DNA from: Escherichia coli
Lineage (GTDB): Bacteria; Pseudomonadota; Gammaproteobacteria; Enterobacterales; Enterobacteriaceae
DNA length: 64,000 bases
Direction: 5' to 3' (one strand)
Assembly: GCF_002854065.1 (NCBI RefSeq)
Contig: NZ_CP024147.1
The position numbers are program-made. Shown here one piece after another: positions 3,001 through 6,000 of the stretch (position 1 is the first letter of the stretch; each line of letters opens with the position of its first letter).

Positions 3001-6000
3001 CTACGGCGCGGATATTACCGTACTTAAAGATCCTGCCAACCATTCACCACTGATCGTCCTCGATCATTAAAAGCAACAGGAGTACCGCACTGGTACTCCT
3101 GCGAATAAATAACTATACAGATTAGCTAATTGAAACGCCTTTCACCCCTGCCATACCTTTTAATAATCGCAACAGATCTTCTATCGACGTTGTGGCATGA
3201 AGCTGGATATCAATGGCGACCACTTCATGATCTTCATTTTCCTGCAACGAAACTAAATCAGTTTTTATTTTTTGCTGCTTAAACCAGTCGAGCATTGATA
3301 CCGTATTACCGTTCACTAGTGTCAGCTGTAAATGGTAATTTTTGTTCATCAGGCGGAAGGTTAATTGATGGAAGACTTCCAGCACCAGCAAGGTCATCAC
3401 TGAACCATAAATACCCAGTTCGTACATACCACTGCCAATAACCATACCAATGGCGGCGGTCACCCAGATATCCGCTGCAGTCGTCAGACCTACAATATTT
3501 TGGTTACGAACGAGAATGTTACCTGCACCGATAAACCCGACGCCCGTCACCACCTGAGCAGCAATACGGCTGGGGTCCAGTCCGACGTGATCTAAAGACA
3601 GCACGTCAGCAAAACCATATTTCGAAACAATCATAAACAGGGCGCTTCCCATGCCAATTAATACATGTGTGCGTAACCCTGCTCCTTTGCCGCGTATTTG
3701 CCTTTCCATGCCAATAGCGCCACAGGCAATTGCCGCGAGTATAAGACGTATAATAAATTCTGCTGTCATATAAAAATGCAAAAAGGAGCAGCAAGATGGC
3801 TCAACTTGCTACTCCTTTTTACTTGTACCTCATTAATTCGGCAAGTCATTAGATGCTTGATTTTTGAAGGTATACAAATTTTTCTGCGGGTTTTTCTTAC
3901 AGTATTCGATCACTTTAGGAATTTGAGTGAGATCGGTTTCATTTAAAGTAACGGTATCGCCACCTTTATATACTGTTTCTTCATGCAGCATCCACCATGC
4001 AACCGGGGTCATTGCTTTTGGATTCAGATCAATAAATTCCTGGCAGGTCATATCTTTAGCGGATTCATTGGCTGCCAGCGCAGATTGTGCGTTCACCAGT
4101 GACAAAGCCGCTACAGCGCCCATAAAAATAAACGCTTTACGGAGAGATGAAATATTCATTTTGTAACCCATTCAATATAGAGATTATATATGAACAGGAG
4201 GAATAGCTGCTTTTAAAGAAGATATTCCGGCCTGTTCAATATGCAAGGAAGTACGATGTAACGCATTCCCGGAATTACATATCTTTCTTAATTTTGTCCC
4301 ATTCGCCTTTAACTTTATCTTTAAAGTTGGCTTGTTTATCCTGAGTACAAGCCTGAACGATAGCTGGGGTTACGGTTGCAATACCCTGAACATCTAAAAC
4401 CGCATCTTCTGGTTTATCTTTGTTGTTCAGCGCTTCAGCAAAACCAACTGCAGTTGGCTGGAAGGATTCGTCCACAGCCAGGAAATCTTCACAGGTCCAG
4501 GAGTTGACCGGTTTTTTGTTATCAGCTGCTTTTTGCGCATCCGCTGCATTGCTCACAACTGGCAGAAGAAGCAGACCACCAAGAATAACGCCTAATACTT
4601 TTTTCATCGTAATATCCTCAACTATAAAGTGAAAGAGCCGTCACGAATCAATTTCGACACTGAGGTTATAACCTGGTTTTCTGTATATGTCATGTTGATG
4701 GAAAATATCAAAATCAGATATTTTTATTTCAATACAATGAGTTACAGATGCATCAGATACTGCAATTAGGAAATTTTTATTAAATCGACTGCATTCTTAG
4801 ACGCGTTTTTGGCATAGATTGATAGCAGGGGATTTTCTTCTTAATTTTATAGGGTGGTTCTATGTTATATATAGATAAGGCAACAATTTTGAAGTTTGAT
4901 CTGGAGATGCTTAAAAAACATCGCAGAGCAATCCAGTTTATTGCCGTGCTGCTGTTTATCGTCGGGTTGCTGTGTATCAGTTTCCCGTTCGTCTCTGGCG
5001 ATATTTTAAGCACAGTAGTGGGTGCATTATTAATCTGCTCGGGTATTGCGCTTATTGTCGGGTTATTCAGCAACCGCAGTCATAATTTCTGGCCGGTATT
5101 ATCCGGTTTCCTCGTCGCAGTCGCCTATTTATTGATCGGCTATTTCTTCATCCGCGCACCGGAGCTGGGCATTTTTGCCATTGCGGCATTTATTGCCGGT
5201 TTGTTCTGTGTTGCAGGGGTTATTCGCCTGATGAGTTGGTATCGTCAGCGTTCAATGAAAGGCAGCTGGCTACAGCTCGTTATTGGTGTGCTGGATATCG
5301 TCATTGCCTGGATATTCCTTGGTGCAACGCCGATGGTGTCTGTAACGCTGGTTTCCACACTGGTGGGAATTGAACTGATATTTAGCGCCGCCAGCCTGTT
5401 CAGCTTCGCCAGTTTGTTCGTTAAGCAGCAATAATTATCCCGGTTGTCACCCGGATCATAGTCACTTGATGTGACTATGATCCGATTAATACTCTCTCCG
5501 CTACGCGGAGTTGTAGATCAATTGCGCACTATCATTGAAATAATTACCTGCTAGTGATTATTTCAACCTACTGAATTTCATCTAATTTTTTTCACTCCAT
5601 GGCAAATTAGCCATTTCAAACATTATCATGGCTGATATTTTCCGTAGTCAGGTTTAATGTTTTAAAAGTGCTGTGGGAAAGTGAACAAAGAGTTCCGTAA
5701 GCGTTGATGCTATGGGCGGTTAAATAAGTAATCCGGGTTCATTTTTTTGCAACTGGCGTTGATTACATTGCATAAATATCCGTGTCTCCAGACGCTATAT
5801 AAAAACCTGAAGACATGAATGAGTTATTTACTCAGGTAATTTCAATGCGTTAAAAGAAAGCTGGCAATCCAATTGCCAGCTTAAGTCGAAACAAGGAGAC
5901 TCGATATTTAAATCGGATTACATTATAACTTTAGTAATATTCTTCAGAGATCACAAACTGGTTATTGATAACTTATTCTTGGGCAGTAATCCGCAAACGT

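What the first reader, a model, noticed from the sequence alone, without database searches (positions are those of the whole stretch)
5850..5918. Candidate ArrS antisense RNA terminator inside the gadE upstream regulatory region
An 11-bp-stem hairpin (5858-5882) is followed on the minus strand by UCUUUU, which implies a short minus-strand transcript ending near 5850. That places it about 315-380 nt upstream of the gadE start, within the region covered by the longest gadE 5' UTR, where an antisense sRNA (ArrS) has been described. Start coordinate and identity are inferred from this structure and from memory only.
Basis: inference. Interest (0 to 1): 0.25.

Follow-up and report, generated by a model that had tools for sequence, protein, structure and literature searches.

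The report
Known ArrS antisense RNA gene

Summary
An 11-bp perfect hairpin (5858-5882, 3-nt loop) is followed by TCTTTT on the minus strand. It is the only strong terminator-like site in the hdeD-gadE spacer. Hairpins this good are about 100 times more frequent in the window than chance predicts.

The interpretation also holds. The 70-nt arrS gene annotated in E. coli K-12 MG1655 (b4704, NC_000913.3 3657985..3658054, minus strand) matches window 5852..5921 (minus) at 70 of 70 bases.

Published Term-seq data from K-12 place very strong minus-strand RNA 3' ends at the positions equal to window 5852 and 5851. ArrS is the best-conserved block of the spacer across Escherichia. It is identical in 4095 of 5411 complete E. 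coli genomes.

According to the literature, ArrS pairs in cis with the gadE T3 leader and promotes RNase III-dependent maturation to a more stable mRNA. It also acts in trans with Hfq on cfa and fepA; the fepA effect needs the loop of this same terminator.

Nothing here is new. Minor extras are a rare promoter-proximal SNP that creates TATAAT, and a weak plus-strand 3' end just past the hairpin.

The parts
5852..5921 (-). arrS gene: 70-nt small RNA ArrS. Its 5' end is G at 5921 and its 3' end is the last U at 5852.
   Evidence: 70/70 identity to the K-12 arrS annotation b4704. K-12 Term-seq 3' ends equal window 5852 and 5851.
5858..5882 (-). Intrinsic terminator hairpin of ArrS: 11-bp stem with loop UGG at 5869-5871.
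   Evidence: Terminator scan. Fold -15.5 kcal/mol, z -4.3. The stem is invariant across Escherichia except for one A-U to G-U change at the second pair. A terminator-loop mutant loses fepA repression (PMC11979758).
5852..5857 (-). U-rich tail UCUUUU after the hairpin: the termination point and, by analogy with other sRNAs, part of the Hfq-binding 3' end.
   Evidence: Read directly from the sequence. Invariant in all 9 aligned sequences. Term-seq 3' ends fall here. The Hfq role is inferred from the RIL-seq classification of ArrS as an Hfq-bound sRNA (PMC5145812).
5909..5921 (-). 5' single-stranded end of ArrS (GUAAUCCGAUUUA), containing the cfa-pairing residue C7 at 5915. On the + strand this stretch holds the reported gadE T2 5' ends (-324 and -317, window 5909 and 5916).
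   Evidence: Unpaired in the minimum-free-energy fold for nt 1-6. The C7G mutation and its compensatory G101C in cfa are described in bioRxiv 10.1101/271551. T2 coordinates come from PMC3708157, mapped. Nt 1-8 are invariant.
5928..5934 (-). Inferred -10 element TAAAGT (-12 to -7), with C at -13 (5934), of the arrS promoter.
   Evidence: Inferred from spacing to the annotated 5' end. C at -13 is a known sigma-S preference (general knowledge). Sigma-S dependence of arrS is reported in papers citing Aiso 2011. This element did not pass the sigma-70 consensus scan.
5951..5956 (-). Inferred -35 element TTGTGA, 17 nt upstream of the -10.
   Evidence: Inference. TTTGTGAT is invariant in all Escherichia sequences aligned.
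5925..5925 (-). Strain-specific SNP at ArrS -4 (A in K-12, T here on the minus strand). It creates a perfect TATAAT at 5922-5927.
   Evidence: Alignment to K-12. The 57-mer around it is found exactly in only 1 of 5411 E. coli genomes.
5667..6232 (+). gadE T3 leader, the cis target. The part from 5852 to 5921 is perfectly complementary to ArrS.
   Evidence: T3 start at -566 from PMC3708157. gadE ORF with ATG at 6233. Complementarity follows from the antisense arrangement.

Best explanation
This is the arrS gene of the E. coli acid fitness island.

A short RNA starts at G5921 on the minus strand. Its promoter is sigma-S-type (inferred: TTGTGA, 17 nt, TAAAGT, with C at -13) and is activated by GadE in acid or stationary phase, according to the literature. 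Transcription stops at the intrinsic terminator, which is the hairpin at 5858-5882 followed by UCUUUU. This gives a 70-nt RNA ending at 5852 or 5851.

ArrS is the exact complement of -381 to -312 of the gadE T3 leader, so it can form a 70-bp duplex with that transcript only. The published model is that this duplex is processed in an RNase III-dependent way to a shorter, more stable T2-type gadE mRNA. That raises GadE, and because GadE activates arrS it closes a positive loop.

ArrS is also an Hfq-associated trans-acting sRNA. Its 5' end (C7) pairs with the long cfa leader and activates cfa. The loop of this terminator hairpin is required for repression of fepA.

Shown here: identity, position, terminator structure and conservation. 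Shown in K-12 by others: the 3' end, the overexpression phenotypes, and the cfa and fepA effects. Inferred: the promoter elements, the link between the T2 5' ends and duplex cleavage, and expression in this strain.
For: - **Identity and position.** The window sequence is 70/70 identical to annotated arrS and the match is unique.
- **Terminator.** The hairpin and tail are found by the terminator scan and fold far better than shuffles. Such hairpins are about 100 times enriched over chance in the window.
- **3' end.** K-12 Term-seq puts minus-strand 3' ends at the equivalents of 5852 and 5851, with 982,952 and 171,112 reads.
- **Antisense geometry.** The gadE TSSs are at -566, -324/-317, -124 and -21. 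ArrS is therefore fully complementary only to T3, and the T2 5' ends fall inside the duplex.
- **Conservation.** ArrS is identical in 4095 of 5411 E. coli genomes and has 1-3 mismatches in the other 1316. Across E. albertii, E. whittamii and three other Escherichia lineages, 90% of ArrS columns are invariant, against 67%, 51% and 7% in the flanks.
- **Substitutions.** Three of the four point substitutions give G-U pairs.
- **Literature.** Cis antisense role and sigma-S/GadE control; RNase III link; Hfq binding and trans targets; cfa pairing through C7; fepA repression through the terminator loop.
Against: - No expression data exist for this strain.
- No compensatory base changes support the fold, because the stems are almost invariant. 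The high conservation could therefore partly reflect + strand constraints on the gadE regulatory region.
- Functional evidence is mostly from overexpression. Deleting arrS had no effect on acid survival or cfa translation under the conditions tested.
- Direct ArrS-guided RNase III cleavage of gadE T3 has not been demonstrated.
- The promoter does not reach the sigma-70 consensus threshold, and no convincing GAD box was found near it: the best match is 11 of 20, at -42 to -61.
- Rfam has no ArrS family, so there is no independent model-based confirmation.
Confidence: 0.95

Rival explanations
1. The palindrome works mainly on the + strand, as a structure in the gadE T3 leader. It would be a stabilising or processing hairpin, a weak bidirectional terminator, or a dimeric-protein binding site in the 798-bp regulatory region. 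On this view the minus-strand terminator reading is secondary.
For: The + strand RNA forms the same 11-bp hairpin (-16.0 kcal/mol, z -5.4). K-12 Term-seq lists a + strand 3' end at 3658019, which equals window 5886, 4 nt after the stem. The region is a dense regulatory spacer. Conservation without covariation cannot tell the strands apart.
Against: The + strand 3' end has 1,432 reads against 982,952 for the minus-strand end. No T-run follows the hairpin on the + strand. The conserved block begins and ends at the ArrS ends rather than at the hairpin, and homology in four lineages breaks 2-4 nt after the ArrS U-tract. The + strand 3' end is equally explained by cleavage of the ArrS-T3 duplex followed by exonuclease trimming back to the hairpin. 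This reading can coexist with ArrS; it is a poor sole explanation.
Confidence: 0.04
2. The hairpin is a chance inverted repeat with no function, and the minus-strand T-run is a coincidence in A+T-rich intergenic DNA.
For: The spacer is A+T-rich, so short T-runs are common. Terminator-like consensus hits are not in themselves evidence of function.
Against: Only 0.03 such hairpins are expected per window. The hairpin is invariant across Escherichia species while flanking DNA diverges to 27-44% identity. It matches a curated gene exactly. An RNA 3' end has been mapped experimentally at this position in K-12.
Confidence: 0.01

Closest known systems
ArrS (arrS, b4704) of E. coli K-12; Aiso et al. 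2011 and 2014
   Same: Everything that could be tested: 70/70 sequence identity, minus strand, -381 to -312 from the gadE ATG, terminator hairpin with U-tail, and flanking genes hdeD and gadE.
   Different: One SNP 4 nt upstream of the 5' end (A to T), creating TATAAT at -6 to -1. It is rare, found in 1 of 5411 genomes. The RNA itself does not differ.
GadY (Rfam RF00122), the other cis-antisense sRNA of the same island, at window 12727-12840
   Same: Both are cis-encoded antisense RNAs in the acid fitness island. Both are linked to processing and stabilisation of a gad regulator mRNA, and both also behave as Hfq-bound trans-acting sRNAs in RIL-seq.
   Different: GadY overlaps the gadX 3' UTR / gadX-gadW junction, not a 5' leader. 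The two RNAs share no sequence similarity. GadY has an Rfam family; ArrS has none.
RydC sRNA
   Same: It activates cfa by pairing with the same site in the long cfa 5' UTR, masking an RNase E site.
   Different: RydC is an unrelated trans-encoded sRNA with a pseudoknot fold (from memory). It has no antisense partner. Its deletion gives an acid-shock phenotype, whereas deletion of arrS does not.
SdsR and RseX 3' ends (far-5'UTR-dependent fepA repression)
   Same: The loop of the intrinsic terminator is needed for fepA repression, together with Hfq and RNase E.
   Different: They have different genes and different loop sequences. For ArrS the 3' half alone could not be tested because it was unstable.

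Membership tests
ArrS sRNA (arrS, b4704) | Sequence matches the curated K-12 arrS gene | tested here: met
   70/70 identity, a single match in the window at 5852..5921 on the minus strand.
ArrS sRNA (arrS, b4704) | [quoted passage not shown] | tested here: met
   hdeD is at 4862-5434 and gadE at 6233-6759. ArrS spans -381 to -312. T3 starts at -566, which is window 5667.
ArrS sRNA (arrS, b4704) | Rho-independent terminator at the 3' end | tested here: met
   11-bp hairpin followed by UCUUUU. Term-seq 3' ends in K-12 fall at the equivalent positions.
ArrS sRNA (arrS, b4704) | Transcribed as a roughly 70-nt minus-strand RNA | not testable with these tools
   There are no RNA data for this strain. 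K-12 Term-seq and northern blots in the literature support it for the identical sequence.
ArrS sRNA (arrS, b4704) | Sigma-S- and GadE-dependent promoter induced by acid or stationary phase | tested here: inconclusive
   A plausible TTGTGA-N17-TAAAGT with C at -13 is conserved. It falls below the sigma-70 scan threshold, and the best GAD-box match nearby is only 11 of 20. The regulation itself is known only from the literature.
Hfq-dependent trans-acting sRNA | Single-stranded seed plus a terminator with a U-tail that binds Hfq; validated trans targets | not testable with these tools
   The seed (nt 1-8) and the U-tail are present and invariant. Hfq association and the cfa and fepA effects are taken from PMC5145812, bioRxiv 271551 and PMC11979758.
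Rfam RNA families | Match to a curated covariance model | tested here: not met
   No family hit at 5400-6300, even at E-values up to 10; only two noise hits appeared elsewhere in that range. Rfam 15 appears to have no ArrS model, so this does not argue against ArrS.

The most novel reading that the evidence does not exclude
Two small points are not excluded.

(1) The rare A-to-T change at ArrS -4 (window 5925) creates a perfect TATAAT at -6 to -1. This could add a second start site about 6-8 nt downstream. The resulting ArrS would lack the 5' seed (including C7) needed for cfa pairing but would keep the cis-antisense and terminator-loop functions.

(2) The hairpin may also define a stable 220-nt fragment of the gadE T3 leader on the + strand (5667-5886; K-12 Term-seq 3' end at 3658019). 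That fragment would retain the complement of the ArrS 3' half and could titrate ArrS.
Probability: 0.1. Interest if true: 0.3.

Novelty: already known. Interest (0 to 1): 0.08.

Why it matters
It matters little as a discovery. ArrS has been described since 2011, is annotated in K-12 and is in active use in the sRNA literature.

The value is confirmatory.

Two by-products are modestly useful. ArrS is the most conserved block of the hdeD-gadE spacer across Escherichia species, which argues that it is under selection even though its deletion has no reported phenotype. PGAP-annotated E. coli genomes, and Rfam, do not carry it, so it is easily missed by automated annotation.

Tried and rejected
- **Rfam.** The gathering and permissive scans found no family for this locus. 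This is uninformative, because Rfam appears to have no ArrS model.
- **Original ArrS papers.** The look-up of Aiso 2014 failed because the paper is not held; Aiso 2011 was not looked up. Their content is cited only through papers that summarise them.
- **TSS data.** The Thomason 2015 dRNA-seq TSS tables are not held. The 5' end therefore rests on the RefSeq annotation, not on a data table I could read.
- **RNase III cleavage site.** The supplements of the RNase III cleavage-site paper are not held, so the cleavage position inside ArrS could not be mapped.
- **GadE binding.** The GadEWX ChIP-exo paper does not mention arrS in its main text (supplements not searched).
- **GAD-box scan of the spacer.** The best matches are 11-13 of 20 and none is convincingly placed, so I make no claim of a GAD box.
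- **Covariation test.** It is uninformative: there are 0 double-sided changes because the stems are nearly invariant.
- **Sigma-70 promoter scan.** It finds nothing for arrS. The promoter assignment is my inference from spacing and conservation.
- **Chance hairpin.** Rejected on the basis.

Full report
**Context.** The window is the acid fitness island of Escherichia coli. ORFs around the finding translate to HdeB, HdeA (both minus strand), HdeD (4862-5434, + strand), GadE (ATG at 6233, stop at 6759), MdtE and MdtF. Rfam finds GadY at 12727-12840. The 601 bases around the finding match 5411 of 5426 complete E. coli genomes. The best match is 99.8%, to strain CUWW06. The hdeD-gadE spacer is 798 bp (5435-6232), as described for K-12 (PMC3708157).

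**The observation.** The + strand at 5858-5882 reads AAGCTGGCAAT CCA ATTGCCAGCTT. This is an 11-bp perfect stem with a 3-nt loop. On the minus strand it is followed by TCTTTTAACG; on the + strand by AAGTCGAAAC.

- The terminator scan reports it as a minus-strand site. It is one of two sites in 900 bases, against 0.5 expected.
- The hairpin with its tail folds at -15.5 kcal/mol (z = -4.3), and the whole 70-nt RNA at -20.2 kcal/mol (z = -3.8).
- Only four perfect hairpins with stems of 11 bp or more exist in the 64-kb window, where first-order Markov simulations give 0.03.

**Identity.** RefSeq K-12 MG1655 annotates 'ncRNA arrS, b4704, small regulatory RNA ArrS' at 3657985..3658054 on the minus strand, between hdeD and gadE. 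Its 70-nt sequence is GTAATCCGATTTAAATATCGAGTCTCCTTGTTTCGACTTAAGCTGGCAATTGGATTGCCAGCTTTCTTTT. It matches the window once, without mismatch, at 5852..5921 on the minus strand. Relative to the gadE ATG this is -381 to -312. Rfam has no family for it, and none of the six PGAP-annotated E. coli records examined here annotates it. The identification therefore rests on the curated K-12 record.

**Experimental ends (K-12, identical sequence).** Supplementary file 1 of Adams et al. 2021 (PMC7815308) reports Term-seq of MG1655 in three growth conditions. It lists dominant minus-strand 3' ends at 3657985 (982,952 reads) and 3657984 (171,112 reads), classified 'primary, arrS'. These equal window 5852 and 5851, the last U of UCUUUU and the next base. 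I could not read a TSS table, so the 5' end at 5921 is the annotated one.

**Anatomy.** The predicted fold has four parts:

- six free 5' nucleotides;
- two weak 4-bp hairpins;
- the terminator hairpin;
- the tail.

Upstream, spacing from the annotated +1 gives a -10 element TAAAGT (5928-5933) with C at -13, and a -35 element TTGTGA (5951-5956) with a 17-nt spacer. That is 8 of 12 matches, just under the scan threshold. It is consistent with the sigma-S dependence reported in the literature. This promoter assignment is my inference. I found no convincing GAD box: the best nearby match is 11 of 20, at -42 to -61, although that block (CAAGAATAAGTTATCAAT) is nearly invariant across species.

**Relation to gadE transcripts.** The gadE 5' ends lie at -566 (T3), -324/-317 (T2), -124 (T1) and -21 (PMC3708157). 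In the window these are 5667, 5909/5916, 6109 and 6212. Only T3 contains the full complement of ArrS. The two T2 5' ends fall inside the ArrS-T3 duplex, opposite ArrS nt 13 and 6. This geometry fits the published proposal that ArrS pairing leads to RNase III-dependent maturation of T3 into a more stable T2. PMC6872547 notes that direct cleavage has not been shown.

**Trans functions (literature).**

- RIL-seq classed ArrS as an Hfq-bound sRNA with acid-response targets (PMC5145812).
- ArrS activates the long cfa mRNA isoform through pairing that involves C7. This was proved with compensatory mutations, yet deleting arrS had no phenotype (bioRxiv 10.1101/271551).
- ArrS represses fepA in a manner that needs Hfq, RNase E and the loop of its terminator, which is the hairpin flagged here (PMC11979758).

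**Conservation within E. coli.** The 70-mer is identical in 4095 of 5411 genomes and has 1-3 mismatches in the other 1316. In the two non-identical genomes examined, the change is A to G at the second pair of the terminator stem, turning A-U into G-U.

**Conservation across Escherichia.** A degenerate gadE-coding pattern retrieved gadE loci from E. albertii, E. whittamii, two unnamed Escherichia species and two divergent 'E. coli' representatives. Column invariance across these sequences was as follows:

| Segment | Invariant columns |
|---|---|
| ArrS | 90% |
| 60 nt upstream of ArrS | 67% |
| next 69 nt upstream | 51% |
| 70 nt downstream of the 3' end | 7% |

In four lineages homology breaks 2-4 nt after the U-tract. 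BLAST shows homology resuming further on, so this looks like an indel boundary. No pair shows a double-sided change, so covariation neither supports nor opposes the fold. Conservation could also owe something to + strand regulatory constraints.

**Rivals.** A + strand role for the hairpin cannot be excluded as an additional function. The + strand RNA forms the same hairpin, and Term-seq lists a weak + strand 3' end at 3658019, which equals window 5886, 4 nt past the stem. However, that end is about 700-fold weaker than the ArrS end. It is just as well explained by duplex cleavage followed by exonuclease trimming back to the hairpin (inference). Chance is excluded.

**Verdict.** The finding is the known arrS gene and its intrinsic terminator. 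Novelty: already known. Interest is low.

Noticed in passing
window 5925 (5922-5927, minus strand): Four nt upstream of the ArrS 5' end the window has T where K-12 has A (minus strand), creating a perfect TATAAT at -6 to -1. The exact 57-mer around it occurs in only 1 of 5411 complete E. coli genomes (CUWW06, wastewater, Thailand). There is no usable -35 or TG extension upstream.
   Followed up: partly
window 5886 (+ strand); K-12 3658019: Published K-12 Term-seq lists a weak + strand RNA 3' end (1,432 reads) 4 nt after the hairpin, inside the gadE T3 leader and antisense to ArrS. It may be a trimmed product of ArrS-T3 duplex cleavage or weak bidirectional termination.
   Followed up: partly
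L003 (E. coli AH21H052) 466-868, equivalent to window ~5853: An IS200C element is inserted directly after GCTTTCTT of the ArrS terminator tail. This truncates the U-tract and replaces the downstream spacer.
   Followed up: no
window ~5748-5849; loci L005, L008, L010, L012: In E. albertii, E. whittamii, Escherichia sp. E1V33 and E. coli E69, homology to the window breaks 2-4 nt after the ArrS U-tract and resumes 70-170 nt further towards hdeD. The ArrS 3' end is therefore an indel boundary, and the T3 leader length differs between species.
   Followed up: partly
L007 (Flavobacterium paronense CECT 8460 contig, 8.6 kb) and L009 (Streptomyces sp. DH24 contig, 466 nt): Contigs filed under unrelated genera carry E. 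coli gadE. L007 also carries ArrS at 100% identity and the spacer at 97%. These are most likely E. coli contamination in those assemblies.
   Followed up: no
window 6877-6948 (+): The Rfam ES205 hit lies in the gadE 3' UTR and coincides with the K-12 gadF (GadF sRNA) annotation, 3658992..3659082, which maps to about window 6859-6949.
   Followed up: partly
window 5452-5484 (+): A 14-bp perfect hairpin sits just after the hdeD stop codon. K-12 Term-seq has a + strand 3' end at 3657621 (about window 5488), so this is the hdeD terminator, although it lacks a clear T-run.
   Followed up: no
window 47983-48048 and 48466-48531 (+); 56613-56694; 54327-54369; 56791-56864 (-): Other Rfam hits in the window are two rdlD antitoxin RNAs (ldr/rdl type I toxin-antitoxin repeats), naRNA4, ES036 and a tRNA.
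   Followed up: no
window 6233-6759 (gadE): GadE here has D at residue 22 (…LKDNDEM…). The GadE protein accession of the closest strain (WP_032281783.1) differs from the one shared by the two other PGAP-annotated strains examined here, ATCC 25922 and AH21H052 (WP_000576690.1). I recall K-12 having H at this position, but that was not checked.
   Followed up: no
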